A stretch of 64,000 bases of DNA, from positions 88,790 through 152,789 of the forward strand of contig NZ_JBLWEN010000001.1 of the NCBI RefSeq assembly GCF_048287415.1, given 5' to 3'. Below, piece after piece: positions 20,377-64,000 of this stretch. Position numbers and translations under genes: made by a program. This DNA is from Candidatus Electronema sp. JM. GTDB lineage: Bacteria; Desulfobacterota; Desulfobulbia; Desulfobulbales; Desulfobulbaceae. The notes under the pieces were generated by a model. That model had not been told where the DNA came from, searched no databases, and saw only the letters and a list, made by a program, of their open reading frames with translations. Numbering within the stretch: the first letter of the stretch is position 1; every line of letters begins with the position of its first letter.

Positions 20377-21864
20377 CTATCGGCTGACACCAGCTTTGCG
20401 CTGGGCTATATCATCCAGTGCTTGCTGAAGCAACTTGGCCTTAGGGTGTTTCATTTTCTGATACAGGTGCAGGCTCCTCTTCCAAGCTGCTTCCGCCTGA
20501 TCAAAATTACCGTATGTCACATACACGCTGCCCAAATTTCCGTATGTGCTCGCCGTTGCTTCTTTTAGCCCCAAGGCTTCGCTGATCTCAAGGCTCTTTC
20601 TGTACATCTCCTCCGCCTTGCCCAATTCGCCGTGTTTGAAGTGTATACTACCCAAATTAGCATACTGTATTGCTGATGTTTCCTTCAACCCCAAGGCTTC
20701 GCTGATCTCAATGCACATCTTGGACATTTTTTTCGCCTTGCCCATCTCGCCGCGTCTTGCATACATATTGCCCAGATTGCCATAATCTTGCGCCATGCAT
20801 TCCCTGCGCCCCAAGGTTTCGTGGATCGCAAGTGCTTTCATGTACATCTCCTCTGCCTCGTCCATCTCGCCGCGCGTAAAGTGTGTATTACCCAGATTGG
20901 CGTACTGGTTCGCTGTTGCTTCCGTCAGTTCCAAGGCTTCGCTGATCTCAAGGCTCTTTTTGTACATTTCCTCTGCCTTGCCCTGCTCGCCACGTATCCT
21001 ATACACATTACCCAGATTCCCGTAATCTTTCGCCATGCCTTCCTTGCGCCCCAAGGTTTCGTGGATCGCAAGTGCTTTTATGTACATCTCCTCCGCCTTA
21101 TATAGCTCACCGCGTGTGCGATACACATTGCCCAGATTACAAATAGCGATTCCCTGTAGCTCGTTGTCCTGATTTGCCTCGCCCAAGGCCAGCACCTTGT
21201 AGTATGCCTCTTCGGCCTGCGCAAATTCCCCTGTGCGGAGGAGTAAGGTGGCAAGCATATTCCAGCCCTCCGCATTGTCCGGGTCAAGCTCCACAGCCTT
21301 CTGATATGCAGTTAGGGCTGCCTTGGTATCGCTCATAAAGGCCAATGCGCCCAAATGCCGGGCGGCGGCGGCTGCTTCCTTGTTCGCCTTCCTTCCTTCT
21401 GCCTCCTTGGTCTTCAGCACTTCAGCAAAGATGGCTTGAGCCAGTTCGGTACGCCCCTGCTCCAAAGCCTTCAAGGCTTCGTTGATGCTCTTTGGTGGCG
21501 CATCCGTCTTGGACAGAGCAGCAATTGCTTCCGTTAATGCCTTGATCTGCTCGTCTTTGGCCTCCAACTGCCCTTGCAATAGCTTTACGGCCAGCTTTCC
21601 CGCATCAACTGCCGGTGCCTTGTCCATGTATTTGTTCCAAACCGCAAGGAAAAAGCCAAGCACCGTCACACTCATCCCAAGCTGGAAGCCATAGGCGAGC
21701 ATCAACTTGATGATCATGCCTGACTCCTCTGGTGAAGGCGGTTGCAGCAGCTTAGAGTCAATGAGCTTAGTGTGGATGCCAAAGACAAGCATCAGGACAA
21801 AGCCCACTAGCACCAGCGGGACAGCCAGATACTTGGCAATCTTCTCAAAGTCTGTGAAGTTCAT
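20377..21864 (-). CDS. Membrane-anchored TPR-repeat protein
   Basis: Two N-terminal TM helices, a coiled-coil stretch, then about 8 TPR units of the YGNLGNVYRxRGExxKAEEMYxKxLxI type. The units are repetitive at the DNA level. Confidence 0.8.
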   Translation of the reverse strand: MNFTDFEKIAKYLAVPLVLVGFVLMLVFGIHTKLIDSKLLQPPSPEESGMIIKLMLAYGFQLGMSVTVLGFFLAVWNKYMDKAPAVDAGKLAVKLLQGQLEAKDEQIKALTEAIAALSKTDAPPKSINEALKALEQGRTELAQAIFAEVLKTKEAEGRKANKEAAAAARHLGALAFMSDTKAALTAYQKAVELDPDNAEGWNMLATLLLRTGEFAQAEEAYYKVLALGEANQDNELQGIAICNLGNVYRTRGELYKAEEMYIKALAIHETLGRKEGMAKDYGNLGNVYRIRGEQGKAEEMYKKSLEISEALELTEATANQYANLGNTHFTRGEMDEAEEMYMKALAIHETLGRRECMAQDYGNLGNMYARRGEMGKAKKMSKMCIEISEALGLKETSAIQYANLGSIHFKHGELGKAEEMYRKSLEISEALGLKEATASTYGNLGSVYVTYGNFDQAEAAWKRSLHLYQKMKHPKAKLLQQALDDIAQRKAGVSR

Positions 21865-31884: not shown

Positions 31885-31997
31885 AAGCCTGCCCGGCACT
31901 TCTTTCTTGACAAATGCGGCCCGCCGAAATAAAGTCGGTGTTTATGACCTGTTGCGTAACTGCCCTGCGTTGAGGAGCCGCAAAGCATGTGCTTGAT

Positions 31998-32025
31998 GTA
32001 GGGGCGAAAAATTTTTCGCCCCTGC
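31998..32025. repeat. REP-like element copy 1: perfect 24-nt palindrome AGGGGCGAAAAATTTTTCGCCCCT inside a 28-mer shared with copy 2
   Basis: GTAGGGGCGAAAAATTTTTCGCCCCTGC is identical at 31998-32025 and 60479-60506. It is flanked by the imperfect inverted repeats TATGACCTGTTGCGTAAC (31943-31960) and CTTATGCAAGAGGTCT (32028-32043). Confidence 0.9.
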
Positions 32026-32121
32026 TGCTTATGCAAGAGGTCTGCTGACTGAGGATAAGTTTGCAACAAAACTGGCGGGAACATCCTGCCAAACAAGAAC
32101 TGACATCGGGAGGAGCGGAAA

Positions 32122-32247
32122 ATGGGAGATAAAGGCGGCAAGAAGGATAAAGAAAAGAACAAGAAGCAGCAGGCCCAGAAGCATGACCAGAAGGGCAAGG
32201 CTGCGCCCGCCGCGCAGGAAAAGCCGCCGAAGAAGGCGGAGAAGTAG
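32122..32247 (+). CDS. Small lysine-rich protein (41 aa), absent from the ORF track
   Basis: ATG at 32122 is preceded by GGGAGGAG. It reads MGDKGGKKDKEKNKKQQAQKHDQKGKAAPAAQEKPPKKAEK, with stop TAG at 32245-32247. Confidence 0.45.
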   Translation: MGDKGGKKDKEKNKKQQAQKHDQKGKAAPAAQEKPPKKAEK

Positions 32248-33006: not shown

Positions 33007-35025
33007 TTACAGGCCGCGAACTGGCGGCAAGGAAAGGGCAAGCCGGAAGCCCAAGTCGTCGCTGCGGTTGTCCGGCGAGTACCAGTAGCGGAACGCCGCC
33101 CGCACGAACAAGGGTGAGTCGCCCCAGCTACCGCCGCGAAACACGCGGCTCGAGCCTTTCTCAGGGCCAATCGGATTGCCCTTAGGACTGACAGCGTAAT
33201 AACCACTGTTGTACCAATCCGCGCACCACTCCCAGACATTGCCGTGCATGTCGTGAAGGCCCCAAGCGTTGGCCTTCTTTTCACCAACTGGATGGGTTGT
33301 ATTGCCGGAATTTTTGCCGTACCAAGCATAGTCCTGAAGCTGCGCCTCATCATCACCAAAGCACCAAGCCGACTCACTGCCTGCCCGGCAGGCATATTCC
33401 CACTCCGCTTCGGTGGGGAGGCGATAGGTGTGACCTGTTTCCTGACTCAGCCATTGACAGTAGGCAACCGCATCGTCCCAGCTTACATTGATCACCGACC
33501 GCTGCCCTCTGCCCCAGCCCCTGTTTTCTTTACCTGTGGCCTCACAGAAAACATCGTACTCGGCAAAGGTGACTGGATAGCGGCCAATGGCAAAGCTGTC
33601 CAGTTCCACCTCATGCACCGGTCGTGCATCGTCACTGCCATTGCCCTGAATATCTCCCATGCGGAAACGACCGCCGCGTATAAGCATCATCTTTATTCCG
33701 AGTCCACCGCCAAAAGACTCCGGCAAAAGACAAGGTAAGGCAATCTGATCAACGTGCCTGAATATCCCATCAGCAAGATCAACAAAGCGCACGAGCTGAT
33801 CCGTGGCCCGCAGCGGTGTTTGTTCAGCCAACTGCTTCTGCACGATGCCCCAAGCTAAGAGGAACTCCTGCACCGTGTAATGGCTGAAGCGGAAGGCGCG
33901 GTCAGAGTTGCGGTTGAGCAAAGATCGTCCGCCCAGCTCGAACTGCTCCAGCCAGGCTATGTTCGCGTCCGCACGGATGAGCTGCTTCAGCTCATCCTCT
34001 GAGAGTACCCGCGTGCCCTGCCGCTGCATCCGCTCCGCAATCCGCAGGCAGGCCAGAAAGAGTTCCTTGCGCTCAGGCACCTGCTCGCCTTGATGCTGCT
34101 CCCGCAGCTTGCGCACTTCCCGGTCAAGCCATTCCTCCACCGTGTAGGTGTTCCAGTCTTGGCGGCGGCAGTCCTTGGCCAGCAGCTTGTCAATATGCTG
34201 AAGGAGCATGGGCCGCATCCGCAAATCCTGCATGTGCTTGAGCAGACAGTCCGCCTTGGCCCGCTCATCCCTGATCTTCCCAGCCTGAAAGCACAGACGA
34301 TGGTGCCAATGCAAGGGCAGCTTGCGCTCAATGAAGTCCTGCACTTGGGCATCGGTGAAGGGGGAAAGATACAGCACCGGGCAGTGATAGCCGGACAGCA
34401 CCCTGATCTCCGGGCGGCCAAAGCGGTCTGGCTCCATCTCCGGGAAGAACTGCGTCCGGCTGGAGATGAGCACCCGGCGGAAATCCTCGCTGGCGCGCAG
34501 CAGCTCCAGCAGGCGGTCGCGGATGCGCTTCCATGCCTGCGGGTCTTCGTCCAAGGCATCGAGCAGCAGGACGGTCCCGCCCTTGTTCGGCAGAGCCTGC
34601 ACGCGCTCCAAGGTGTCTTTCCCCAGCTTGAACAGGGCGCAGCCATGCCCCTTGGGCCAGAAGCTGGTCAGGTGCATGAGCTTGATCATCAGCAGCAGCG
34701 AGGTCTTGCCCATCCCAGCATCAGAGAGGATGAACATCTGGTGGCGGCCATCCTTCTCCAAAGGCAGACCGCCCTGAAAGAACTCGTTGATCCGCTCAAA
34801 GGCAGGCTGCCGGGCCGCAGAGAGCAGGTCGTCCTGCTGCACATCCGCCGGGTTGCGGTCTTGCAGGAACGGCTCAATGTAGAGGCCGCGCAGGGTTTCA
34901 GGATCAACGAACTCGTCCCGCAGACGGTCAAGCTCCTGCTTCCGCTCGCCGGTCAGTTGCGTGAGCCGCTTCCAAAGATCCTTAATCCACGCTGGCTTGA
35001 CAAAGCTCAGGACTTCCAAGGCCAT
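33007..35025 (-). CDS. NACHT-like STAND P-loop NTPase fused to a C-terminal FGE-sulfatase (SUMF1-type) domain
   Basis: Walker A SDAGMGKTSLL and Walker B VLLLDALDE. The C-terminal ~270 aa carry RGGRFRMGD...PVHEVELDSFAIGRYPVT..EY..F......WDDAVAYCQWLS...YRLPTEAEWEYACRAG...GLHDMHGNVWEWCADWY. RBS AGGAGGG. Confidence 0.8.
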   Translation of the reverse strand: MALEVLSFVKPAWIKDLWKRLTQLTGERKQELDRLRDEFVDPETLRGLYIEPFLQDRNPADVQQDDLLSAARQPAFERINEFFQGGLPLEKDGRHQMFILSDAGMGKTSLLLMIKLMHLTSFWPKGHGCALFKLGKDTLERVQALPNKGGTVLLLDALDEDPQAWKRIRDRLLELLRASEDFRRVLISSRTQFFPEMEPDRFGRPEIRVLSGYHCPVLYLSPFTDAQVQDFIERKLPLHWHHRLCFQAGKIRDERAKADCLLKHMQDLRMRPMLLQHIDKLLAKDCRRQDWNTYTVEEWLDREVRKLREQHQGEQVPERKELFLACLRIAERMQRQGTRVLSEDELKQLIRADANIAWLEQFELGGRSLLNRNSDRAFRFSHYTVQEFLLAWGIVQKQLAEQTPLRATDQLVRFVDLADGIFRHVDQIALPCLLPESFGGGLGIKMMLIRGGRFRMGDIQGNGSDDARPVHEVELDSFAIGRYPVTFAEYDVFCEATGKENRGWGRGQRSVINVSWDDAVAYCQWLSQETGHTYRLPTEAEWEYACRAGSESAWCFGDDEAQLQDYAWYGKNSGNTTHPVGEKKANAWGLHDMHGNVWEWCADWYNSGYYAVSPKGNPIGPEKGSSRVFRGGSWGDSPLFVRAAFRYWYSPDNRSDDLGFRLALSLPPVRGL

Positions 35026-39451: not shown

Positions 39452-39478
39452 CGAAAAAGGGGCGAAGAAAATCGCCCC
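39452..39478 (-). terminator. Rho-independent terminator of the AT-rich operon (hairpin shared with the convergent PPDK-like gene)
   Basis: GGGGCGA (39459-39465) pairs with TCGCCCC (39472-39478). Read on the minus strand, the hairpin is followed directly by TTTTT. Confidence 0.6.
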
Positions 39479-39495: not shown

Positions 39496-40212
39496 CTATT
39501 GAGCAGTGCCTTTTCGAGGAATCTTCAGCCGTAGTCTTGGATAAATTAAGTTTGGGTTATCCATCAACTGAGGATGCTTCTCTTTATTTGCCAAAATAAT
39601 TTCTTGAACAGAAACGTGGTGTCGTTCAGCGATCTTTCCTAAACAATCGCCTTCCATTACTTGATAGCAGTCTTTGCCTAAATAGCAATCAACAGTCTCC
39701 TTTAGTTCTGTGATATTTTCTGGATTGGCATAGAATATGTAGACTGGCGCGAAAATCAAAGAAACAGCGTACCATCTTTTTTTACGAAATATCCATCTAA
39801 TGTTTATTGTTTTTTCATAAATTTTTTTTATTTTGCTTTTGCAATTTTCAATAAAAATTATGCCGCCGCTCAAGATGCCATCTATTTTATAGACAAAAAC
39901 AGGCAGATTCGACCTGTATTTCCGTATCAATCTATTTCCATATCCTTCCATGTAAAGAAGGATAAAAAACAATGTAAAAACACAGAATGCTATTATTTTA
40001 AATAAAATCATTAAAATCCAAGGAAGCACCCGGAGCGCAAGCCAAGGAATCAACAACATCAATACGAAAAGAATAACAAACGGGAGTGCAACGGATAGCC
40101 ATTCTGATCTTGATGCAGAAAATAGCTGTTCGGAAATAACTTGGAAGAAAAGAATACCTTTTATAAGGTATTCATCTTGAATTTGGTTTAACAGGCTATT
40201 CAGGCGTTCCAT
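39496..40212 (-). CDS. Island gene D: polytopic membrane protein with C-terminal LysM domain
   Basis: There are 3-4 hydrophobic helices (LSVALPFVILFVLMLLIPWLAL, ILMILFKIIAFCVFTLFFILLY, AVSLIFAPVYIFY). The LysM-like C-terminus is YQVMEGDCLGKIAERHHVSVQEIILAN...IYPRLRLKIP. The start overlaps the gene C stop by 17 nt. Confidence 0.7.
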   Translation of the reverse strand: MERLNSLLNQIQDEYLIKGILFFQVISEQLFSASRSEWLSVALPFVILFVLMLLIPWLALRVLPWILMILFKIIAFCVFTLFFILLYMEGYGNRLIRKYRSNLPVFVYKIDGILSGGIIFIENCKSKIKKIYEKTINIRWIFRKKRWYAVSLIFAPVYIFYANPENITELKETVDCYLGKDCYQVMEGDCLGKIAERHHVSVQEIILANKEKHPQLMDNPNLIYPRLRLKIPRKGTAQ

Positions 40213-53208: not shown

Positions 53209-53293
53209 TTGCACTATAGTGGAAGCAGCCATTGCACTACAGTGGAAACCTCGGTTGCACCATAGTGCAAACATCGGTTGCACTATAGTGCAA
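53209..53293. repeat. Four 16-bp palindromic sites (TTGCACTATAGTGCAA consensus) on an exact 23-bp period
   Basis: Copies start at 53209 (TTGCACTATAGTGGAA), 53232 (TTGCACTACAGTGGAA), 53255 (TTGCACCATAGTGCAA) and 53278 (TTGCACTATAGTGCAA, a perfect palindrome). Confidence 0.9.
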
Positions 53294-53311
53294 CCGCAAG
53301 CCACAGCCTGC

Positions 53312-53326
53312 TGGCCGCTTGGCTGC
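53312..53326 (+). promoter_or_regulatory. Candidate sigma-54 (-24/-12) promoter
   Basis: TGGCCGCTTGGCTGC fits the TGGC-N8-TGC spacing of the TGGCACG-N4-TTGC consensus. It lies 19 nt downstream of the palindrome array and 87 nt upstream of the ROCO ATG. Confidence 0.3.
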
Positions 53327-53412
53327 GAGGAAGCTGCAAGTATCCGAGCCATGCTCGAAGGCATTGCAGGGGCACCCTTAGCACAACCACACACCCACGG
53401 AGGAACGAGGCG

Positions 53413-55434
53413 ATGAGCAAAGAAGAAGCCTTGCAGCTAATTAAAGAGGCTGCGGAGACAGGGGCAACGTGGCTTAATCTCTTTAATCAAGGATTGAGTG
53501 AAATACCACCTGAGGTGTTTGCGCTTAAGCAGCTCACCTATCTTGGTCTCACTCATAATCGTCTCGCCTTTCTACCGCCAGAACTGTTTGAGATGAAGCA
53601 GCTCACCCAGCTTGAACTCAGCGACAATTGCCTTATCTCATTACCGCCTGAGGTGTTTACACTCAAACAATTAACCTTGCTTAACCTCATTCGCAACCAC
53701 CTTGTCACCCTACCGCCAGAGATTAATCAACTACCCAAGTTAAAAGATATTTGGTCTTTCGATAACCCCCTCGTCTCTCCTCCTTACGAAATAGCTATCA
53801 AAGGCATCTCAGCCATACGCGAATACTTCGCTGAAATGGAAGGCGAGAGCAAGGAGCTGGCCGAGGTCAAGATCATCCTTGTGGGCGAAGGCGCATCGGG
53901 CAAGACCTCATTAGTCAGGCGGCTGCGCGGGGAGCAGTTCGACCCGCACGAGCCAATGACGCACGGCATCAGCATCAACAAATGGCGGCCCGCAAGCGCA
54001 GGCCAGCTGCCCTGCTGCAATGTCTGGGACTTCGGCGGCCAAGAGATCATGCACGCCACGCACCAGTTTTTCCTTTCCCGCCGCAGCCTGTACGTCCTTG
54101 TCCTCGACAACCGGCGCGACGAGCGGCCCGAATACTGGCTGCGCTACATCGAAACCTTCGGCGGCGATTCGCCGGTCTTAGTGGTGCTCAACAAGCAGGA
54201 CATCAATCCCGGCTTTGATCTCAACCGGCCTTTTCTGCACGAGAAATACCCGTTCATCAAGGGCTTTTGGCCGCTTTCCTGCCACAGCGGACAGGGCATG
54301 GCGGCATTCACGCAAGCCTTGCACGAGGAGTTAGACAAGGTGCCCTTGAGCAAGAACCGCTGACCCGCAACCTGGTTCCGGGCAAAGGAAAAGCTGGAGC
54401 AGCTGCACGAGCCGCGCATCAACTACGAACGCTTCGAGCAAATCTGCCTTGAAGCCGGGGTGAAGGGCGCGACCACGCAGCAGGTCTTGGTGGATTTCCT
54501 CAACGATCTGGGCACGGTCATTCACTTTGATCAATTTGAGCTGAACGATCATCACGTCCTTAATCCGCAATGGGTGACAGAGGCGGTGTACAAGATCATC
54601 AACGCGCCGTCGGTGGCACATGCCAAGGGCCTGCTGCACGTGGATGCGCTGGCGGACATCTTAGCAAAGAAGAAGGACAGCGAGCATCGTTATTATCCCG
54701 CTGATCACCATTACATCATCGAGCTGATGAAGAAGTTCGAGCTGTGCTATCAAGTGGGTGAGAGCGAGGTGCTGATACCGCAGCTTTTGGCCGTGCCTGA
54801 GCCTTCCTTCACCTTTTATTACAGCAATGCCCTGCGTTTTGTTCTCCATTATGAGGACTTCCTGCCGCCGTCTGTCATGCCCCGCTTTATTGTCAATCGG
54901 CATAAAGAGATTCAAGGCGAACTGCGCTGGCGCAGCGGCGTTGTCCTGAAGAATGCGCAGCTTGATGCCAGCGCGGTGGTGCGGGCGGATGACGAGGCCC
55001 GCCGCATTCATATCGCTGTGACCGGCAAGGAGCGCAAAATCTTCCTCGCCCTGATTTGGCTCACTCTGCGGGAAATCAATGCGGGCTTTGAAGGCTTGAA
55101 GGTCAGCGAGCGCGTGCCCATGCCGGATGAGCCGGAACGCAGCGTGGATTACGAGACACTTCTCAGCTATGCGGAACAGGGCTTGGAAAAGATTATCCCC
55201 GAAGGCACGAAAAAGGCATATAGTGTGAAAGAGCTGCTGGAACGGGTGCATTTCGCCAATGAAAGCGAGGGCAGGCAGATGCTGGCTTTGGCTGAGGGTG
55301 AACGGAAAGGCGGAGCAGTGAACAAAACAGGCGCCGCATTGAACACCATGTTCAAGCTGGAGCCTTCAGTTTTTGGCGTGGGAATCAACCTCAATGCGAT
55401 GTTTGACGCTCTGCTGAAATGGCAGAGGAAGTAA
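53413..55434 (+). pseudogene. ROCO protein (LRR - Roc GTPase - COR) interrupted by one in-frame TGA at 54361-54363
   Basis: LRRs, then the linker NPLVSPPYEIAIKGISAIREYFAE. Roc G1 GEGASGKTS, G3 WDFGGQE, G4 NKQD. The COR region is (TGA)PATWFRAKEKLEQLHEPRINYERFEQIC...VLVDFLNDLGTVIHF...IIELMKKFELCY. ORFs 53278-54363 and 54460-55434 share a frame, with no other stop between them. Confidence 0.8.
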
Positions 55435-55785: not shown

Positions 55786-57314
55786 CTCCACCTGTCGGCC
55801 TGGCCAAGCACGAGCAGCTGCAAGCGCTTGCAGCTCAATACGGCTGCCCTGTCCTGGAATACAGCGAGAAGGTCAGCGTGCCGTTCCTCATCCTCATTCA
55901 GCTCAATGCGGAGCAGCTGCGGCAGGAAGGCTGGCTGCCGCTACACGTCACGGAAGAGAAGGTGAAAATCCTCACGCACCGCGCCCCGGACGAGGTCGCC
56001 GCCGCTGTCCGCCAGACGCTGGGCGAGGTGGAGCTTGATTTTGTCCTCACTGTGCCGCATGACTTTATCCGGGTCTTTGAGCACAGCTGCGATCTCAACC
56101 CCAGATTCCCCATGCCCGCAGGCCGCACGCCGCTGGCCAGAGTGCGCACTTACTTCGCAGGCCGCCGCTCGCTTTTCGCGCACTACCGCACCTTGATGGC
56201 CAAAAGCCGCACCGATCTGGCCACCGTCCGCACCGCGCTGTCCTTCATGACCATCGCCCTGCTCGGCGTGCGGGTCTTCGGCCTGGGCACGCTGGCAGTG
56301 CTGGAGCTGCCGCTCTTTCTCCTCGGCGCATGGGTCTGCGTTGACAGCATCGTCAGCTACCTGCCTGCCCGCCGGGTGAAAAGCCGTCTGCCCGCCTGCT
56401 CCGGCACCACGCCGACCAACGGCACCACAGTCTTGGCGGCCTCGAACGCGGAGGATTTCCCGCTCTTCCGCCGCCTGCCTGAGACACCGGGCGCAGCCGC
56501 CTTGCGGGCAGGCTGGACCAAGCTCACCCCGCTGATGCGCCGCCGCTTTCTCGCCAGCGACCGCACCGACATGGCCGAGGAGCGGACAACGCTGGCCTGC
56601 CTCCGCACCAAAATGGCGAAGGCGCGCACCGGCCTGGCTTTTGTCCGCACCGGCCTGGCCTTTTTCTCCCTCGGCTTCGGCCTGATGCGGGCCTTTCCCG
56701 AAGTCATTTATTGGCACATCTTAGATGTGAGTTTGATGGCCGCCGGAATCCTCATGGCACTGGAAGGCTTCTTCTGGTATAAAAAAGGTCGGCCTGCGGG
56801 CGAGGAAGGGCAGGCTTCGGTGGAGAAAGCGAACAAGGCGGGCACGATCTGGGATTTCTTCTTCCCGCATGTCGCGGCCTGCCCCAGCCCCAATCCCCTG
56901 CAAACCCCGCCAGTGCGCCGCTCGCACGCGCCGGGCCTCTGGGCGACCACAGGTCTAGCTTTGGAGCGCACCGTCTTAGCTGACCGCCGCAATGTCATGG
57001 CGCGGCTACGGACGGTCATGGCCCGCTCGCGCACGGGCATGGCCTTCATCCGCACCGGCCTGAGCATCCTGCTGATCGGTGTCACCTTCTTGGTCTCCTT
57101 CCCGGATGCGGGCCTGCTCTGGCAGCTGCTCGACTGGTGCCTGATCCTCGGCGGCTCCGTCTTAGTTGCGGACGGCTTTTACTGGACGGTGCCTGCGGAG
57201 CGGAAACGGACGGAGTTCCCCTACTGCTTCGCGGATTTGGAAATAGCTCTGGCGGATTACGGCATTCCCTCCCGCCATTGGCGGAAGACGGTGTTTTATC
57301 GTGCAAGCAAGTAA
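55782..57314 (+). CDS. Membrane protein: T2SSE_N (GspE/MshE N-terminal-like) domain + three DUF202 (YidH-like) modules
   Basis: The N-terminal ~100 aa fit the GspE_N pattern (QYGCPVLEY...LNAEQLRQEGWLPLHV.EEKVKILTHRAPDEVAAAVRQTLG.VELDFVLTVPHDFIRVFE). There are three RTxLAxxRTxLA motifs (SRTDLATVRTAL, ERTTLACLRTKMAKARTGLAFVRTGLA, RNVMARLRTVMARSRTGMAFIRTGL), each followed by paired TM helices. Confidence 0.7.
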   Translation: MTPPVGLAKHEQLQALAAQYGCPVLEYSEKVSVPFLILIQLNAEQLRQEGWLPLHVTEEKVKILTHRAPDEVAAAVRQTLGEVELDFVLTVPHDFIRVFEHSCDLNPRFPMPAGRTPLARVRTYFAGRRSLFAHYRTLMAKSRTDLATVRTALSFMTIALLGVRVFGLGTLAVLELPLFLLGAWVCVDSIVSYLPARRVKSRLPACSGTTPTNGTTVLAASNAEDFPLFRRLPETPGAAALRAGWTKLTPLMRRRFLASDRTDMAEERTTLACLRTKMAKARTGLAFVRTGLAFFSLGFGLMRAFPEVIYWHILDVSLMAAGILMALEGFFWYKKGRPAGEEGQASVEKANKAGTIWDFFFPHVAACPSPNPLQTPPVRRSHAPGLWATTGLALERTVLADRRNVMARLRTVMARSRTGMAFIRTGLSILLIGVTFLVSFPDAGLLWQLLDWCLILGGSVLVADGFYWTVPAERKRTEFPYCFADLEIALADYGIPSRHWRKTVFYRASK

Positions 57315-58539
57315 CGAGACGCTCCTGACGGCCTTGGCCCGGAAGGGCGTTCTGCCGGCAGAGACGCTGGCGGAGATTGAGCAGGCCGCCACGCTGCGCG
57401 GGCTGGCGCCTGCGACGCTGCTGGTCTATGAGTACAATGTGCCGCGCGTCACGCTGCTGGAGGCCTTGGCTGAGATTCACGCCTGCCAGCCGGTGGAGTA
57501 TGATGAGCGGCTGCCCATCCCGCCGGACTTCCTGCCCAAGCTCTCCGGTCCGGCCTTGCTGAAGGAAGGCTGGTTCCCCATCTTCTTGGAGGAGGACGGC
57601 ACTGTGACGGTCGCCGCCTCCAACCCTGCCGCGCCGGGCCTGTGCGCTTCGGTGCGGCAGACGCTCGGATGCAGCAATGTGGTCTGCATGGTCACCCTGC
57701 CGGAGGACGTGCAGTGGTTCATTCAGGATTATCTGCACGCGCCGCCCGGCCTGCTTATCGGCACTGAGCGCACTGGCCTGGCCTATTGGCGCAACACCAT
57801 GGCCCAGTGGCGGACGCTGCTCGCCTGCTGCCGCACCGACATGGCCAAGGCGCGCACAGCACTGGCCTTTGGCCGCTTTGGCCTCTCGCTGATCACGGTC
57901 GCCATGACCTTGCTGCGCCTGACTCCGCCGCGCCTGCCCAAGCCTGCGGCCTTCCTCCTCCTGGCTTTGGGCCTGCTCTGCAACGGACTGGGCGTGGCGG
58001 TGTATCTGCGGATCCGCCGCTCGCAGCTACGCCCGCCCGGCAGCCAGACGATCATGGAAGTGACTGCGGCCACCATCTCGTTCTTGGAGCAGTACCATTT
58101 CCCGGAAGAGCTGAAGGGCAGCCTGCCGCCGCCGCAGACCGGCGCATCCATGCTCGCCCGCCTGGGAGAGCTGCTCGCCGACTACTCGACCATCCTTTTC
58201 CCGGCTCCGCCCAGCCGCGAGCGCACGCATCTGGCCCGTGAGCGCAACGTGCTGGCGGCCCAGCGCACGGTGGCTGCTTGTTACCGCACCATCTATGCCC
58301 GCGCCCGCACTGGGCTGGCCTTCACCCGCACTGGCGTGAGCTTCTTCAGCTTTGGCGTGGGCCTGATCCTCTATTTCGGCCTCGGCCTGAACACCATCTT
58401 TGATGCGCTGCTGATTGCCGCAGGCCTGCTGATGATCACCGACGGCCTGCTCTGGTATCTGCCGGTGCGCAAAGAGCAGGCCGAGCTGCCGCGCTCGCGC
58501 AGCGGTGCCCTGGCTGGCTGGGAGGATGACGACGAATGA
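57301..58539 (+). CDS. Paralogous membrane protein: T2SSE_N-like domain + two DUF202 modules
   Basis: GTG start overlaps the upstream gene by 14 nt. ARKGVLPAETLAEIEQAA...LSGPALLKEGWFPIFLEEDGTVTVAASNPAAPGLCASVRQTLG...MVTLPEDVQWFIQDYL is followed by RNTMAQWRTLLACCRTDMAKARTALAF and ERNVLAAQRTVAACYRTIYARARTGLAFTRTG. Confidence 0.7.
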   Translation: MQASNETLLTALARKGVLPAETLAEIEQAATLRGLAPATLLVYEYNVPRVTLLEALAEIHACQPVEYDERLPIPPDFLPKLSGPALLKEGWFPIFLEEDGTVTVAASNPAAPGLCASVRQTLGCSNVVCMVTLPEDVQWFIQDYLHAPPGLLIGTERTGLAYWRNTMAQWRTLLACCRTDMAKARTALAFGRFGLSLITVAMTLLRLTPPRLPKPAAFLLLALGLLCNGLGVAVYLRIRRSQLRPPGSQTIMEVTAATISFLEQYHFPEELKGSLPPPQTGASMLARLGELLADYSTILFPAPPSRERTHLARERNVLAAQRTVAACYRTIYARARTGLAFTRTGVSFFSFGVGLILYFGLGLNTIFDALLIAAGLLMITDGLLWYLPVRKEQAELPRSRSGALAGWEDDDE

Positions 58540-59942: not shown

Positions 59943-60307
59943 TTATTGACGACGAACGGATAGTGGGCGACATGGCCAAACTGTCCCTCAGTCAGGATGG
60001 CTACGATGTGGAAACGTTTCTCGACGGCGAGAGCGCGCTGAGGCGGCTCAAGGAGAAGAGCTTCGCTGTCGTGGTCACGGATTTGAAGATGAAAGGCGTG
60101 GACGGGCTGGAAGTCTTGCGCAACGTCAAGCAGCTTTATCCGGCAACAGCGGTGATCATGATCACTGCCTTCGCCAATCTTGATGTGGCCATCGAGGCTC
60201 TGCGCGACGATGTTTTTGATTTCTTCCCCAAGCCGGTGAAGATCAAAGACCTGAAAGCGTCGGTCAAGCGGGCAGTGGAAAAGGGAAACATGCCGCAGGC
60301 AGGCTGA
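59927..60307 (+). CDS. Single-domain response regulator (CheY-like REC)
   Basis: IMIIDDE...VVVTDLKMKGVDGLEVL...VIMITAF......A......DFFPKP. Start is ambiguous (59918, 59927 or 59939); 59939 would give an ATGA overlap with the kinase stop. Confidence 0.85.
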   Translation: MHSIMIIDDERIVGDMAKLSLSQDGYDVETFLDGESALRRLKEKSFAVVVTDLKMKGVDGLEVLRNVKQLYPATAVIMITAFANLDVAIEALRDDVFDFFPKPVKIKDLKASVKRAVEKGNMPQAG

Positions 60308-60370
60308 GTCTGTGGCTGCTGTCGGCGATGGAGTTCTTCCTGGCAGCTTATGCTCTGGCAGAGGACACCA

Positions 60371-60448
60371 TTATGCTTGACAAGAGGACAACGTTATCCT
60401 CTTGCGGAGCATAACATTATGCTCTTTGGCTGCATAGTGCTATGCAGC
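60371..60448. repeat. Two consecutive hairpins related to the REP/MITE-like family
   Basis: TTATGCTTGACAAGAGGA (60371-60388) pairs with TCCTCTTGCGGAGCATAA (60397-60414) with a 3-nt internal mismatch. GCTGCATAG (60429-60437) pairs with CTATGCAGC (60440-60448). Confidence 0.75.
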
Positions 60449-60478
60449 GGCAGCAGCAAATATGGTCGTGGCAATGGT

Positions 60479-60506
60479 GTAGGGGCGAAAAATTTTTCGC
60501 CCCTGC
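60479..60506. repeat. REP-like element copy 2 (identical 28-mer containing the 24-nt perfect palindrome)
   Basis: GTAGGGGCGAAAAATTTTTCGCCCCTGC is identical to 31998-32025. Confidence 0.9.
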
Positions 60507-60542
60507 AGCATTGCGGAAAACATGCAAAGGAGGAACGAGGCG

Positions 60543-60674
60543 ATGAACAAAGAAGAAGCCTTGCGGCGGATTAAACACGTGGAGGAGACAGGAGCAACGA
60601 GGCTTGATCTGAGCTTTCAAAGATTGACTGAACTGCCGCCTGAACTCTTTCAAATAAAAAATGAACCAACTTGA
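60543..60674 (+). pseudogene. Truncated duplicate of the ROCO/LRR gene 5' end (43 codons)
   Basis: GGAGGAACGAGGCGATGA(A/G)CAAAGAAGAAGCCTTGC is shared with 53399-53434, with one mismatch in 36 nt. The product MNKEEALRRIKHVEETGATRLDLSFQRLTELPPELFQIKNEPT* parallels the ROCO N-terminus, then terminates where the PpsA-like ORF begins. Confidence 0.7.
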
Positions 60675-63261
60675 TAGTTCTGCCGACAAAGGAGCAACTC
60701 TCCGCAGCCTGTGGACTGCCTTGCTCAAGCTGCTGCCGGGCCGCAGCGCGCCGCCAGTCAGCCCGCGTCTGGTCTTTGAACGCTTTCAGAAGGTGCTGGC
60801 CAGCAACAATCAGGCTTTGGAGATCATTGCCGATCTGGGCGAGAAGCTGGGCGGCGACTACCTCTTTGACATGCGCTATGTTGAGTCCTCGGTTGAGGAG
60901 CTGATTGCGGCGGTGCACAGCTCAGTGCTGGCGGTGAATGAGCTGTGCGGCGACCGTCACGCCAAGCTGCATCAGGTGCATGAGCGTCTGAGCGAGGACT
61001 TGCGCCTGACCCTGGCTGGCCGTGAAGACCGCGAGGGGCCGCTGATCTTCACGCTGGATGAGATCCGCCCGCGCAACTGGGCCTTGGTCGGCGGCAAGGC
61101 CGCGCACTTGGCGGTGATGCGGCATGATCCGCAGCTGCGCGTGCCGGACGGCTTTGTCATCACCGCCCGCGCCTACAACGATCTGATTGACCATAACGGC
61201 CTGCGGCAGCAGCTCACTGCTTTTGAGGAGCTGATGTCCGCCACTGAGCCGGATGCCGACCTGCTGGAGGAGCAGCGCAGCTTGATTGAACAGGCCGTGC
61301 TCGCTGCCGCGCCGCCGCCGGGCCTGTTGGACGCGCTTGCCCAAGCAGCAGGCCGTCTGCCGCAGACCAGCAAGCCGCTCTTCTTGGCGGTGCGCAGCTC
61401 GGCGCAGGAGGAAGACATGGACTTCTCCTTTGCCGGCCAGTTCACGTCGGTGCTCAACGTGCCTGCCCAGCCGGATGCGCTCTTTGCTGCTGCCCGCGAG
61501 GTGATGGCCAGTCTGTTCTGCGCCGGGGCTGTGTCGTACCGCCGCCGCGTCTTCCCGGATGAAGGCAAGATGGCTATTGCCGTGGTCTGCCAGCGGATGG
61601 TGGATTCCCGCAGCAGCGGCATCGTCTTTTCGGTGGACACCATGCAGCTCGCTCACGACACGATGGTGGTGGTGGCCGCGTGGGGCCAAGGCGAGGCGGT
61701 GGTGGAAGGCGGCACAGCCACTGACACCTTCCAGCTCCACAAGGGGCCGCCGCTGCGCATCGCTGCCCGGCAGGTGGCGGACAAAGAGCAAGGCCTCTTT
61801 GCCGGAGCCGAGAGCGGCCTGACCAGCCGGGCCATCGCCAAGGAGCTGCGCACTGCGTCCTGTCTCTCAGACGATGAGCTGCTCCAGCTTGGCAGCACAG
61901 CCCTGCACTTGGAAACGCTCTTCAAGCGGCCGCAGGACATCGAATGGGCCTTTGACAGCAGCGGCCAGCTCTACATTCTCCAAGCCCGGCCCTTGGTGCT
62001 CAACACCCCGGCGCGGGAAAAGGCCCTGCCAGTCCGTGTGGAGCAGCACGAGGTCATCTGCGCCGGACAAGGCAAAGTGGCCCAGCAAGGCATTGCCGCC
62101 GGGCCAGTGCATTTGGTCAATTTTGCTGAGGAGACCGGCGAGTTCACGGAAGGCTCAGTGCTGGTCACGCACCACGATTCCTCCCGCCTCGTCACCTACA
62201 TCCAGCGGGCCGCCGGTGTCATCACCGAGACCGGCACGCCGGTCAGCCACATGGCCACCATCTGCCGCGAGTTCCAAGTGCCCTGCTTGGTCAATGTGGG
62301 CAGCATCCTCGGCAAGGTGCGCGAAGGCGAGCTGATCACCGTGGACGCGGAAGACCGCCGCATCTATCGAGGCTTAGTTGACGAGCTGCTGGTCTATCGC
62401 GCCACCTCCTGCATCAACCTGATGTCCAGCCGCGAGTTCCGCCTGCTCCGCCGCATTCTCAAGAAGGTCTCTGAGCTGCATCTGGTGGATCCGATGATGC
62501 AGGACTTCAGCATAGACGGCTGCCGCACCTATCACGACATTCTCCGCTTCTCGCATGAGTCAGCAGTGCAGGAGATGGTCAACCTTGGCCGCGATGAGCG
62601 GCGGCTGATCAAGGGCAGCATCGTCCGGCCGATGAAGCTGCCCATTCCCACCGGCATTCTGGTGATTGACATCGGCGGCGGCCTTGCCTCTGACGCGCCT
62701 GAGCGCGATGTGCCGTTTCAGGCCATTGCTTCCGTGCCCTTCCGTGCTGTGCTGCAAGGGATGCTCTTCCCGGAGATATGGCACAACAATCCTATGCCGG
62801 TAGGCATCCGCGACCTGATGAACAGCATGTTCAGTCCGATCCGCGAAGAGGCGGCGGAGCAGTACAGCGGCCACAACATCGCCATCATCGGCGGAAATTA
62901 TGTCAATCTTTGCTTTCGTCTGGGCTATCATTATAATATTATAGACGCGCACTGCGGCGAGGCGGAGCAGAACAACCATCTTTACTACCGCTTTCTGGGC
63001 GGCGTGACGGACATGACCAAACGCTCGCGCAGGGCGGCGATGATCGCGCAGATACTCAAGGAGTTCGAGTTCAATGTCCAGACCAAAGGCGACCTGGTCA
63101 CAGCCCGGCTCTCGCGCCTGCCGCAGCGGGAGGCCGAGCGCGCGCTGGACATCCTTGGCAGACTGGTGGGCTACACCCGCCAGCTGGATGTGCGCATGGA
63201 GAGCGACAATGATCCGGGCAGATATGCCGAAGCGTTCCTGAACGGGGAATACAGGGTTTGA
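60661..63261 (+). CDS. PpsA-like protein: PEP synthase-type ATP-grasp + swivelling phospho-His domain + ~300-aa non-canonical C-terminal domain
   Basis: NWALVGGKAAHLAVM, LAVRSSAQEEDMDFSFAGQFTSVLNV, MAIAVVCQRMVDSRSSGIVFSVD, QDIEWAFDSSGQLYILQARPL, and the mobile domain AGVITETGTPVSHMATICREFQVPCLV. The C-terminal region lacks the PEP-utilizer TIM-barrel motifs I know (no GTNDLTQ-like segment). Confidence 0.75.
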   Translation: MNQLDSSADKGATLRSLWTALLKLLPGRSAPPVSPRLVFERFQKVLASNNQALEIIADLGEKLGGDYLFDMRYVESSVEELIAAVHSSVLAVNELCGDRHAKLHQVHERLSEDLRLTLAGREDREGPLIFTLDEIRPRNWALVGGKAAHLAVMRHDPQLRVPDGFVITARAYNDLIDHNGLRQQLTAFEELMSATEPDADLLEEQRSLIEQAVLAAAPPPGLLDALAQAAGRLPQTSKPLFLAVRSSAQEEDMDFSFAGQFTSVLNVPAQPDALFAAAREVMASLFCAGAVSYRRRVFPDEGKMAIAVVCQRMVDSRSSGIVFSVDTMQLAHDTMVVVAAWGQGEAVVEGGTATDTFQLHKGPPLRIAARQVADKEQGLFAGAESGLTSRAIAKELRTASCLSDDELLQLGSTALHLETLFKRPQDIEWAFDSSGQLYILQARPLVLNTPAREKALPVRVEQHEVICAGQGKVAQQGIAAGPVHLVNFAEETGEFTEGSVLVTHHDSSRLVTYIQRAAGVITETGTPVSHMATICREFQVPCLVNVGSILGKVREGELITVDAEDRRIYRGLVDELLVYRATSCINLMSSREFRLLRRILKKVSELHLVDPMMQDFSIDGCRTYHDILRFSHESAVQEMVNLGRDERRLIKGSIVRPMKLPIPTGILVIDIGGGLASDAPERDVPFQAIASVPFRAVLQGMLFPEIWHNNPMPVGIRDLMNSMFSPIREEAAEQYSGHNIAIIGGNYVNLCFRLGYHYNIIDAHCGEAEQNNHLYYRFLGGVTDMTKRSRRAAMIAQILKEFEFNVQTKGDLVTARLSRLPQREAERALDILGRLVGYTRQLDVRMESDNDPGRYAEAFLNGEYRV

Positions 63262-63717: not shown

Positions 63718-63753
63718 AATTGTCCCCTGCGTTGAGTGGCTACGTGATGCAGC

Positions 63754-63771
63754 AGGGGCGAAAAATTTTTC
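63754..63771. repeat. REP-like element copy 3, truncated after the left arm and loop
   Basis: AGGGGCGAAAAATTTTTC matches the first 18 nt of the 24-nt palindrome and then diverges (ACACCTTATATT...). The upstream motif CCCTGCGTTGAG (63725-63736) is shared with copy 1 (31963-31974). Confidence 0.75.
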
Positions 63772-63860
63772 ACACCTTATATTAGAGCCTGTTACTGTTA
63801 ACACTAGACCTCTTGCGTAAGTCACAACTTATTGATAAAAGAAGCTATGACCTGTTAGCA

Positions 63861-64000
63861 TTATTTGATTGCAATCACGATCAAGGCAAAAACGACAAAC
63901 CCGATGAACATGACATCCAGTTTGTCAAACCGGGTGAAGATGCGGCGGAATCCCTTCAGCCTTCTGAACAGCCGCCCGACTTCATTCCGTTTTTCATACA
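63861..64000 (-). mobile_element. IS5-family (DDE_Tnp_1-type) transposase gene, 3' end only (continues beyond the window)
   Basis: The minus-strand translation YEKRNEVGRLFRRLKGFRRIFTRFDKLDVMFIGFVVFALIVIAIK* matches the conserved Y..RN.vER.F..LK.fRRi.tRydK C-terminal signature of IS5-family transposases. Confidence 0.7.

What the first reader, a model, noticed from the sequence alone, without database searches (positions are those of the whole stretch)
31942..32043. REP/MITE-like repeat family built around the perfect palindrome AGGGGCGAAAAATTTTTCGCCCCT
The same 28-mer GTAGGGGCGAAAAATTTTTCGCCCCTGC occurs at 31998-32025 and 60479-60506. A truncated copy lies at 63754-63771, and a relative with the same GGGGCGA/TCGCCCC stem serves as the terminator at 39459-39478. 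Each copy is accompanied by versions of a second motif, (C)TTATGCAAGAGGTC and its complement GACCTCTTGCGTAAG:
- Around copy 1 the motif forms imperfect inverted repeats (31943-31960 and 32028-32043), giving a ~100-bp MITE-like unit.
- Upstream of copy 2 it folds on itself (60371-60414).
- Near copy 3 it lies at 63807-63821.

Copies 1 and 3 also share CCCTGCGTTGAG. All copies are intergenic, downstream of operons. This fits a genome-wide structured repeat (REP/BIME-like, possibly terminator-forming or IS-mobilised).
Basis: seen in the sequence. Interest (0 to 1): 0.5.

Follow-up and report, generated by a model that had tools for sequence, protein, structure and literature searches.

The report
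Known RAYT-type REP palindrome repeat
The palindrome is a copy of an already catalogued "double-foot" REP element, the short DNA hairpin repeat recognised by a domesticated tyrosine transposase, here sitting in a freshwater cable bacterium, so it is an ordinary member of a known repeat class.

Summary
The palindrome is real. It is exact at 31998-32025 and 60479-60506 and decayed at 63752-63779.

It is not specific to this genome. The 22-base core occurs in more than 116 loci from about 75 assemblies of many phyla, against about 0.03 expected by chance. The flanks are unrelated except for GTA...TAC, giving the consensus GTAGGGGCGAAAAATTTTTCGCCCCTAC.

That exact 28-mer is listed by Quentin et al. 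2018 (Table S1) as a "double-foot" REP of TnpA_REP (RAYT) subclass 2.4. In ten fetched loci the palindrome lies inside and next to such a Y1/HuH gene, in frame as VGAKNFSPL, as that paper describes.

The source is Candidatus Electronema sp. JM. No RAYT gene lies in the window, and I could not scan the whole genome.

The "second motif" is only partly real:
- It flanks copy 1 as 15-nt imperfect inverted repeats.
- It recurs beside copy 3, within a stack of IS5/IS427-like element ends.
- It is not significant at copy 2.

Three relatives lack window 31945-32045 entirely, so copy 1 arrived within a roughly 100-bp MITE-like insertion.

The hairpin at 39459-39478 is an ordinary minus-strand terminator.

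Verdict: a known kind of element, of low interest.

The parts
31998..32025 (.). REP copy 1: GTAGGGGCGAAAAATTTTTCGCCCCTGC. It forms a 12-bp hairpin with loop AATT. The 5' foot is GTAG. The 3' foot is CTGC, which reads GCAG on the other strand.
   Evidence: Folding energy is -20.4 kcal/mol with RNA parameters and -11.5 with DNA parameters. Its 22-nt core is exact in more than 116 loci, and it differs by one base (3' foot CTGC, not CTAC) from the 28-mer REP in Quentin 2018 Table S1.
60479..60506 (.). REP copy 2, the identical 28-mer. It lies 171 nt after the response-regulator stop and 37 nt before the ATG of a leucine-rich-repeat (LRR) gene fragment.
   Evidence: L145 has the same REP at the equivalent place. 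L144 has a different double-foot REP at the orthologous position.
63752..63779 (.). REP copy 3, decayed: GCAGGGGCGAAAAATTTTTCACACCTTA. The left half is intact and the right arm is mutated.
   Evidence: The hairpin is lost: -2.6 kcal/mol with DNA parameters.
31945..32045 (+). A 101-nt lineage-specific segment ('unit 1') holding REP copy 1 between imperfect terminal inverted repeats. It is a MITE-like insertion.
   Evidence: Alignments A2 and A5. Electronema sp. VV and GCA_011391865 have 11-12 unrelated nt here, between conserved flanks. Electronema sp. JC lacks it too, but shares only the upstream flank.
31946..31960 (+). Left inverted repeat of unit 1: GACCTGTTGCGTAAC. The 11-mer TATGACCTGTT (31943-31953) is identical to the end of the resident IS at 63846-63856.
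   Evidence: and direct reading.
32028..32042 (-). Right inverted repeat of unit 1: GACCTCTTGCATAAG on the minus strand. It matches the left arm at 12 of 15 positions.
   Evidence: The arms pair in the predicted fold.
63807..63821 (+). IS/MITE-end-like motif GACCTCTTGCGTAAG, preceded by CTA. It is the middle one of three stacked IS5/IS427-like ends.
63785..63803 (+). Remnant of another IS427-like end: GAGCCTGTTACTGTTAACA, preceded by TTA.
   Evidence: Read. Compare the inverted repeats GGGCCTGTTAAC of complete relatives in L119 and L120.
63848..64000 (-). Partial IS5-family (IS427-like) element running off the window. The terminal repeat is TGACCTGTTAGCA (63848-63860), the stop codon is at 63861-63863, and the transposase C-terminus reads ...RLKGFRRIFTRFDKLDVMFIGFVVFALIVIAIK.
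   Evidence: Homologues are named IS5/IS1182 family transposase. Related IS5-family transposase genes sit in plasmids, one shown complete with both ends (L120), and another complete relative is in L119.
31907..31935 (+). Sigma-70-like promoter, TTGACA-17-TAAAGT, immediately upstream of unit 1. This is context only, not part of the repeat.
   Evidence: Both hexamers are invariant in four Electronema genomes.
32122..32247 (+). 41-aa lysine-rich ORF downstream of unit 1. This is context only. Unit 1 would form its 5' leader.
   Evidence: It is called as a 41-aa gene at the same place in L121, L122 and L123.
39459..39478 (-). Ordinary intrinsic terminator for the minus-strand LysM gene (39496-40212). 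Its stem is GGGGCGA/TCGCCCC. It is not shown to belong to the REP family.

Best explanation
The palindrome is a GTAG-footed 'double-foot' REP (repetitive extragenic palindrome). It belongs to the family that goes with TnpA_REP/RAYT subclass 2.4 (Bertels group 4).

Inferred mechanism, based on the E. coli TnpA_REP work: on single-stranded DNA the 28-mer folds into a 12-bp hairpin. A Y1/HuH tyrosine transposase encoded elsewhere in the genome recognises the GT[AG]G foot and cleaves and rejoins there. Copies therefore spread to, and are exchanged between, intergenic sites.

Once transcribed, the hairpin (-20 kcal/mol as RNA) can secondarily act as a 3'-end or leader structure.

In this window, from Candidatus Electronema sp. 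JM, there are two intact copies and one decayed copy. Copy 1 did not arrive as a bare REP. It came inside a roughly 100-bp segment bounded by 15-nt inverted repeats that resemble the ends of a resident IS5/IS427-like element.

Shown: the sequence identity, the cross-genome distribution, the link to RAYT genes in other genomes, and the presence/absence polymorphism of unit 1.

Inferred: RAYT-mediated mobility in this genome, and any RNA-level role.
For: (1) Distribution. My calculation gives about 0.03 expected for 596 Gb. The hosts include Electronema aureum, E. sp. TJ and E. sp. JC, Desulfobacteraceae, Spirulina and Phormidium, Fluviicola, Omnitrophota and Anaerolineae.

(2) Flanks. Of 125 scorable copies, 79 have GTA on the left, 86 have TAC on the right and 66 have both. 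The flanks are otherwise unrelated.

(3) Location. Copies avoid long ORFs: 47% lie inside, against an 86% background, p about 1e-25.

(4) Link to RAYT genes. [quoted passage not shown] In nine of the ten it is translated in frame as VGAKNFSPL-like; L092 reads the other frame (RGEKFFAPT). Three loci also carry a copy just upstream. The motifs MPNHIH, WQRNY and YIxxNP are invariant in the eight aligned. The best family hits are NCBIfam REP_Tyr_transpos and Pfam Y1_Tnp. Of 120 further homologues, 79 contain GAKNFSP.

(5) Published description. Quentin et al. 2018 (PMC6006769) describe exactly this for subclass 2.4. [quoted passage not shown] Their Table S1 lists GTAGGGGCGAAAAATTTTTCGCCCCTAC, foot GTAG, double foot = T, for BAM00060.1.

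(6) The other foot. In the window it reads GCAG, which fits the GYAG degeneracy reported by Di Nocera et al. 2013.

(7) Turnover at these sites. L145 has the same REP at the copy-2 position, and L144 has a different double-foot REP there. Unit 1 is absent from three relatives.
Against: - No RAYT gene lies in the 64-kb window.
- The source genome could not be scanned.
- No Electronema name appears among the top 120 RAYT homologues.
- Only three copies are visible here, so high copy number in this genome is unproven.
- The 3' foot of both intact copies is CTGC, not the strict C[TC]AC.
- Copy 1 sits in a larger insertion with its own inverted repeats, so that copy may have moved by a DDE-transposase route rather than by RAYT.
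- A few of the 127 copies elsewhere lack the GTA/TAC feet and look like ordinary extended terminator hairpins (L007, L060, L078, L116).
Confidence: 0.85

Rival explanations
1. The mobile unit is a roughly 100-bp MITE mobilised in trans by the resident IS5/IS427-like DDE transposase. On this view the palindrome is merely the internal core of that MITE.
For: - Window 31945-32045 is one insertion/deletion difference relative to three relatives.
- It is bounded by 15-nt inverted repeats matching at 12 of 15 positions.
- The left repeat shares the 11-mer TATGACCTGTT with the end of the partial IS at 63846-63856.
- The right repeat recurs, 15 of 16 identical, at 63806-63821 among stacked IS ends.
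- Complete relatives of that IS have comparable ends, TA|GGGCCTGTTAAC.
Against: - There is no target-site duplication, and 11-12 nt of the empty site are replaced.
- Only one complete unit is seen. The motif is absent from 1.3 Mb of fetched loci, apart from matches unlinked to any REP.
- Copy 2 has no such repeats.
- More than 100 copies of the palindrome in other genomes have unrelated flanks.
- The sequence next to the 63807 motif does not match the interior of unit 1.

At most this explains how copy 1 arrived, not what the family is.
Confidence: 0.2
2. The palindromes are host-evolved transcription terminators or mRNA-stabilising hairpins that arose in place, not mobile elements.
For: - All three copies follow the 3' ends of genes.
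- The RNA hairpin is strong, z about -6.
- A few copies in other genomes carry A- and T-tracts like bidirectional terminators (L078, L116).
- A similar stem forms a genuine terminator at 39459-39478.
Against: - No T-tract follows the stem in the window copies, and the scan did not flag them.
- Copy 1 lies downstream of a conserved promoter, in a leader, not at an operon end.
- An identical 28-mer in about 75 assemblies of many phyla cannot arise by local convergence.
- It occurs in frame inside RAYT genes.
Confidence: 0.05
3. The palindrome is an operator for a dimeric transcription factor that regulates the downstream genes.
For: It is a perfect 24-28-bp dyad. Copies 1 and 2 lie 96 nt and 37 nt upstream of start codons.
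Against: - The neighbouring genes are unrelated, both here and in more than 100 other loci.
- The site is missing from orthologous promoters of relatives.
- Its conservation across phyla tracks a transposase gene, not a regulon.
Confidence: 0.02

Closest known systems
'Double-foot' REP of TnpA_REP (RAYT) subclass 2.4 / Bertels group 4. Quentin, Siguier, Chandler and Fichant 2018, BMC Genomics 19:475, Table S1, entry CaerA01 BAM00060.1: GTAGGGGCGAAAAATTTTTCGCCCCTAC.
   Same: - The 27 of 28 bases match; only the A/G in the 3' foot differs.
- The 12-bp stem, AATT loop and GTAG foot are the same.
- It is intergenic and dispersed.
[quoted passage not shown]
   Different: - The host is different: a cable bacterium (Desulfobulbaceae).
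- The 3' foot here is CTGC, not CTAC.
- The cognate gene was not located in this genome.
- One copy is embedded in a larger inverted-repeat-bounded insertion.
E. coli REP/BIME elements with TnpA_REP (RAYT subclass 2.2). Ton-Hoang et al. 2012 is recalled from my own knowledge. Messing et al. 2012 (PMC3479197) and Corneloup et al. 2021 (PMC8266576) are known to me only from the abstract openings listed.
   Same: Both have a GTAG-footed GC-rich hairpin, are extragenic and high-copy, and are recognised as single-stranded DNA by a Y1/HuH enzyme. This is the working model I apply here.
   Different: - E. coli REPs are imperfect bulged hairpins with one foot, arranged as inverted pairs (BIMEs/REPINs).
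- The element here is a single, perfectly symmetric 28-mer.
- It belongs to a different RAYT subclass, one that carries REPs inside its own gene.
GTAG-tagged REP super-family (Di Nocera, De Gregorio and Rocco 2013, BMC Genomics 14:522).
   Same: - The terminal GTAG motif, with GYAG variants.
- Stems of 6-13 bp and minimal loops.
- A preference for sites downstream of ORFs.
- G-T pairing, which suggests an RNA role.
   Different: This sequence was not found in that paper's text or in its held supplements. Its figures are not held, so I cannot assign the element to one of the 24 families.
Bacterial MITEs derived from IS5-family (IS427-group) insertion sequences.
   Same: Unit 1 is about 100 bp and non-coding. 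It has terminal inverted repeats resembling a resident IS end, and it is present or absent between close relatives.
   Different: It has no target-site duplication, no further copies were found, and its interior is a REP rather than IS-derived sequence.
Subterminal hairpins of IS200/IS605 elements.
   Same: These are hairpins recognised by a Y1/HuH transposase on single-stranded DNA.
   Different: IS200/IS605 hairpins flank the transposase gene as the ends of a discrete IS. These palindromes are dispersed singly, and the associated gene is low-copy (Table 1 of Quentin 2018).

Membership tests
GTAG-footed REP (RAYT/TnpA_REP-associated) | A 5' GT[AG]G tetranucleotide at the foot of a GC-rich hairpin. 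| tested here: met
   GTAG at 31998-32001 and 60479-60482 opens a 12-bp stem. 79 of 125 copies elsewhere have GTA before the GGGG core.
GTAG-footed REP (RAYT/TnpA_REP-associated) | Many copies dispersed in intergenic DNA of one genome. | tested here: inconclusive
   - There are 2 intact copies and 1 decayed copy in 64 kb, all intergenic.
- Copies avoid ORFs.
- A whole-genome count in Electronema sp. JM could not be made.
GTAG-footed REP (RAYT/TnpA_REP-associated) | A cognate Y1/HuH tnpA_REP gene in the same genome, flanked by the same REP (a REPtron). | not testable with these tools
   - There is none in the window.
- The feature is met in ten other genomes: L041, L050, L053, L057, L061, L085, L092, L093, L106 and L107.
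'Double-foot' REP of TnpA_REP subclass 2.4 | 5' GT[AG]G plus its reverse complement, C[TC]AC, at the 3' end. | tested here: not met
   Read strictly, both intact window copies end in CTGC. The family consensus does meet it: 66 of 125 copies elsewhere have both feet. The other strand reads GCAG, within the published GYAG degeneracy. The window copies are one-base variants of the double-foot form.
'Double-foot' REP of TnpA_REP subclass 2.4 | Sequence match to a catalogued member. | tested here: met
   Table S1 of PMC6006769 lists GTAGGGGCGAAAAATTTTTCGCCCCTAC: subclass 2.4, double foot T, MFE -20.4. The window copies match at 27 of 28 positions.
'Double-foot' REP of TnpA_REP subclass 2.4 | [quoted passage not shown] The gene carries NH[IFV]H, WQ and YIxNNP. 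| tested here: met
   Met in other genomes, not in this window. In the eight aligned genes VGA..SP lies between MPNHIH and WQRNY...YIxxNP. This matches the description and Table 1.
MITE derived from an IS5/IS427-like element (unit 1 only) | Terminal inverted repeats matching the ends of an autonomous IS in the same genome. | tested here: inconclusive
   - The arms match each other at 12 of 15 positions.
- The left arm shares an 11-mer with the one visible end of the resident IS.
- The other IS end lies outside the window.
MITE derived from an IS5/IS427-like element (unit 1 only) | A target-site duplication. | tested here: not met
   The flanks are TTTA and TGCTG. The empty site in relatives (GTTTGTGTTCCATAAGTGAC) is partly replaced, not duplicated.
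MITE derived from an IS5/IS427-like element (unit 1 only) | Several near-identical copies. | tested here: not met
   No second unit occurs in the window or in 1.3 Mb of fetched loci. The source genome was not scanned.
MITE derived from an IS5/IS427-like element (unit 1 only) | Presence/absence polymorphism between relatives. | tested here: met
   It is absent from Electronema sp. VV, sp. JC and GCA_011391865. In VV and GCA_011391865 both flanks are conserved.
Intrinsic terminator | A GC-rich stem-loop followed directly by a T-tract. | tested here: not met
   The REP copies were not flagged, and no T-run follows them. The separate hairpin at 39459-39478 does meet the feature, on the minus strand.

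The most novel reading that the evidence does not exclude
REPs of this class may spread and turn over by routes other than simple RAYT-mediated copying. Two observations point that way.

(a) Copy 1 shows a RAYT-type REP riding inside an insertion bounded by inverted repeats that look like IS5/IS427 ends. That would mean dissemination by a DDE transposase acting in trans.

(b) At the orthologous site upstream of the LRR gene, two Electronema relatives carry different perfect 28-bp double-foot REPs. The centres are AAAAATTTTT and TTTCGCGAAA, between identical feet. Point mutation cannot easily produce this. It suggests site-specific replacement of one REP 'allele' by another.
Probability: 0.15. 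Interest if true: 0.45.

Novelty: already known. Interest (0 to 1): 0.15.

Why it matters
Mostly for annotation. These hairpins should be labelled as RAYT-type REPs, not as terminators, operators or a new repeat class.

They also mark places where cable-bacterium genomes rearrange. All three copies sit at strain-variable junctions.

A minor point of wider interest is that one exact 28-bp REP is shared by genomes from many phyla, while the associated transposases are only about 50-65% identical. The pairing of REP and enzyme therefore seems to be tightly constrained.

Tried and rejected
- Rfam at gathering thresholds on the whole window found nothing.
- A full-text search for the 22-mer found no paper. 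The match was found only in a supplementary table.
- A search for cable bacteria together with REP found no paper.
- Nunvar 2010 and Di Nocera 2013 do not hold the sequence in their text or held supplements.
- Exact-protein look-ups of window genes failed, including the 100%-identical SbcC hit, so the window could not be extended.
- A profile search with eight RAYTs gave more than 7900 hits, but no Electronema name among the 120 listed.
- An empty-site test for copy 3 failed. All five related contigs diverge from about 63676-63689 onward, before the response-regulator stop codon.
- I considered that CCCTGCGTTGAG might be the right end of a decayed REP, because L082 has an intact REP followed by TGCATTGAG. 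I left this as unproven.
- CRISPR, assembly or adapter artefact, and transcription-factor operator were all considered and rejected. The grounds were the spacing, the occurrence in complete isolate genomes and in frame inside genes, and the unrelated neighbouring genes.

Full report
**1. The observation**

The 24-mer AGGGGCGAAAAATTTTTCGCCCCT is exact at 32000-32023 and 60481-60504. It has two mismatches at 63754-63777. None of 100 shuffles of the window gave any match. The 28-mer GTAGGGGCGAAAAATTTTTCGCCCCTGC is identical at 31998-32025 and 60479-60506.

The intact copies fold into a 12-bp hairpin with an AATT loop. The energy is -20.4 kcal/mol with RNA parameters and -11.5 with DNA parameters. 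Copy 3 has lost its right arm.

All three copies are intergenic:
- Copy 1 lies 113 nt after the sbcC-like gene.
- Copy 2 lies 171 nt after a response-regulator gene.
- Copy 3 lies 34 nt after another response-regulator gene.

**2. The palindrome is not peculiar to this genome**

I scanned one genome per species, 596 Gb in all, for the 22-base core GGGGCGAAAAATTTTTCGCCCC. By my calculation a random 22-base palindrome is expected about 0.03 times.

The loci come from about 75 assemblies. They include Candidatus Electronema aureum, E. sp. TJ and E. sp. JC. They also include Desulfobacteraceae, Spirulina, Phormidium, Fluviicola, Omnitrophota, Anaerolineae and Latescibacterota.

The flanks are unrelated except for three bases on each side. 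GTA precedes the core in 79 of 125 copies, TAC follows it in 86, and 66 copies have both. The family consensus is therefore the perfect 28-bp palindrome GTAGGGGCGAAAAATTTTTCGCCCCTAC.

The copies avoid long open reading frames. 47% lie inside one, against a background of 86%, with p of about 1e-25.

**3. Link to a transposase**

In ten of the fetched loci the palindrome lies inside a gene of about 180-225 codons. In nine of them it is read in frame as VGAKNFSPL or a close variant; L092 reads the other frame (RGEKFFAPT). Three loci carry another copy just upstream.

Eight of these proteins, aligned, share invariant MPNHIH, TIGS..RGFKIGVTK, WQRNY..H and YI..NP motifs. Their best family matches are NCBIfam NF047646, 'REP-associated tyrosine transposase' (61 bits, below its 80-bit cut-off), and Pfam Y1_Tnp.

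A profile search found more than 7900 relatives. Several are named 'REP element-mobilizing transposase RayT'. Of the 120 listed, 79 contain GAKNFSP and 6 contain the other-frame reading GEKFFAP.

**4. This is already in the literature**

Quentin, Siguier, Chandler and Fichant (2018, PMC6006769) define TnpA_Y1 subclass 2.4, which equals Bertels group 4. Its features are:
- HuH motif NH[IFV]H, plus WQ and YIxNNP.
- A distribution across Cyanobacteria, Bacteroidetes and various other phyla.
- REPs that are 'long' or 'double foot', meaning 5' GT[AG]G plus 3' C[TC]AC.

Their Table S1 lists, for protein BAM00060.1 (genome code CaerA01), the REP GTAGGGGCGAAAAATTTTTCGCCCCTAC. It records foot GTAG, stem 12, loop AATT, MFE -20.40 and double foot = T.

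The window copies differ from this by one base, with CTGC for CTAC. On the other strand that foot reads GCAG, inside the GYAG degeneracy reported for GTAG-REPs by Di Nocera et al. 2013.

**5. Source and what could not be tested**

The SbcC-like protein is 100% identical to a protein of Candidatus Electronema sp. JM. Relatives are at 86% (GCA_011391865), 85% (E. sp. JC) and 81% (E. sp. VV).

No RAYT-like gene lies in the window. I could not read the rest of the JM assembly. The genome-wide copy number and the presence of a cognate gene in this organism therefore remain open.

**6. The second motif and the 'MITE-like unit'**

Counted over the whole window, the 15-mer and the 12-mer are not significant. 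I then aligned the 90-nt flanks locally against a null of 3000 random window segments. Only the flanks of copies 1 and 3 share matches, three of them, each with p of about 0.006-0.015. The flanks of copy 2 share none.

The motif looks like an insertion-sequence end:
- The window stops inside an IS5-family element on the minus strand. Its C-terminus reads ...RLKGFRRIFTRFDKLDVMFIG....
- Complete relatives of about 830 bp end in TA|GGGCCTGTTAAC..., with the stop codon inside the right repeat.
- By position, the resident element ends at 63848 with TGACCTGTTAGCA.
- Two further such ends are stacked just outside it, at 63807-63821 and 63785-63803. Each is followed by TA.
- The left repeat of unit 1 shares TATGACCTGTT with the resident end. 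The right repeat is 15 of 16 identical to the 63806-63821 end.

**7. Comparative test of unit 1**

In Electronema sp. VV and GCA_011391865 the sbcC gene, a TTGACA-17-TAAAGT promoter-like site and the leader of a 41-codon lysine-rich ORF are conserved. E. sp. JC shares only the sbcC end and that site. All three lack window 31945-32045. VV and GCA_011391865 have 11-12 unrelated bases there instead.

Copy 1 therefore arrived, or was lost elsewhere, as part of one segment of about 100 bp whose borders coincide with the inverted repeats.

Against a clean MITE, there is no target duplication and no second copy in anything I could read. The REP itself clearly exists without these repeats in more than 100 other places.

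**8. Copies 2 and 3 in relatives**

The segment 60281-60721 varies between strains. A contig at 96% identity (L124) has 113 bases there. Contigs at about 80-85% identity have about 2.5 kb holding an LRR gene (L144) or an NB-ARC/TPR gene (L145).
- L145 carries the same REP about 210 nt before the pyruvate phosphate dikinase-like (PPDK-like) gene, as part of a cluster of different double-foot REPs.
- L144 carries a different perfect double-foot REP, GTAGGGGCGTTTCGCGAAACGCCCCTAC, 36 nt before the LRR gene's ATG. The window has copy 2 at 37 nt.

Downstream of the last response regulator, all five related contigs diverge. There is therefore no empty site to compare for copy 3.

**9. The other claims**

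The fold-back at 60371-60414 is part of a run of palindromes that L144 also has upstream of the same gene. It is local regulatory or structural sequence, not part of the repeat.

The hairpin at 39459-39478 is a standard terminator on the minus strand for the LysM gene. It shares only the GGGGCGA stem, so calling it a relative is not justified by the evidence.

**10. Verdict**

It is the published double-foot REP of RAYT subclass 2.4, seen here in a cable bacterium.

The composite architecture holds for copy 1 only. It probably reflects IS5/IS427-type ends that accumulate at the same junctions.

Interest is low. The two loose ends worth a look are the REP carried inside an inverted-repeat-bounded insertion, and the different REP 'alleles' at one orthologous site.

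Noticed in passing
L144 844-871 compared with window 60479-60506: At the orthologous spot, 36-37 nt upstream of the LRR-gene ATG, a relative carries a different perfect 28-bp double-foot REP: GTAGGGGCGTTTCGCGAAACGCCCCTAC. The feet are the same and the central 10 nt differ. This looks like replacement rather than point mutation.
   Followed up: partly
L145 2611-2797; L047 5742-5769: Electronema relatives hold other 28-bp double-foot REP families, GTAGGGACACGGCATGCCGTGTCCCTAC and GTAGGGTTACGGCATGCCGTAACCCTAC. In L145 several kinds are clustered within 190 bp. None of these occurs in the window.
   Followed up: partly
window 31907-31935 and 32122-32247: A sigma-70-like promoter (TTGACA-17-TAAAGT) is invariant in four Electronema genomes. 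A 41-aa lysine-rich ORF (MGDKGGKKDKEKNKK...) is a called gene in two of the relatives (loci L121-L123). The 101-nt unit sits exactly where the transcript should start, so in strain JM it would add a structured leader.
   Followed up: partly
window 63783-63863: Three IS5/IS427-like element ends lie in tandem in the same orientation, each followed by TA. This suggests repeated nested insertions next to decayed REP copy 3.
   Followed up: partly
window 60281-60721; 60544-60673 compared with 53399-53520: This intergenic stretch is hypervariable between strains. The closest contig has 113 nt, and others have 2.5-kb LRR or NB-ARC/TPR genes. In the window it holds only the N-terminal fragment of an LRR gene, 79% identical to the start of the Roc/LRR gene at 53278-54363.
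   Followed up: partly
window 63690-63736: The last codons of the response-regulator gene and its stop diverge from all relatives. They read GTAGAATTGTCCCCTGC, which could be a REP with an internal deletion overlapping the stop codon.
   Followed up: no
L081, L104, L107, L045, L058, L095 (the bases just left of the palindrome): In several genomes the REP is preceded by one to three tandem partial copies of its left half (ggggcgaaaaatt...). This hints at slippage or abortive events at the hairpin.
   Followed up: no
window 60382-60448: There is a series of 18-22-nt palindromes: AAGAGGACAACGTTATCCTCTT, GAGCATAACATTATGCTC and GCTGCATAGTGCTATGCAGC. Similar palindromes occur in L144 upstream of the LRR gene. 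They may be operator sites.
   Followed up: no
window 56176-58338; 20531-21191; 1979-2925: The repeat finder showed coding repeats here: 21-nt-periodic CGCACC..ATGGCC units in two adjacent genes, five 120-nt units, and 69-nt LRR units.
   Followed up: no
window 33007-35025 (-); L023 1423-1796: A 672-aa protein has a C-terminal FGE-sulfatase (C-type-lectin-like) domain. Its E. aureum homologue has a REP about 90 nt past its 3' end. I did not check whether a diversity-generating retroelement is involved.
   Followed up: no
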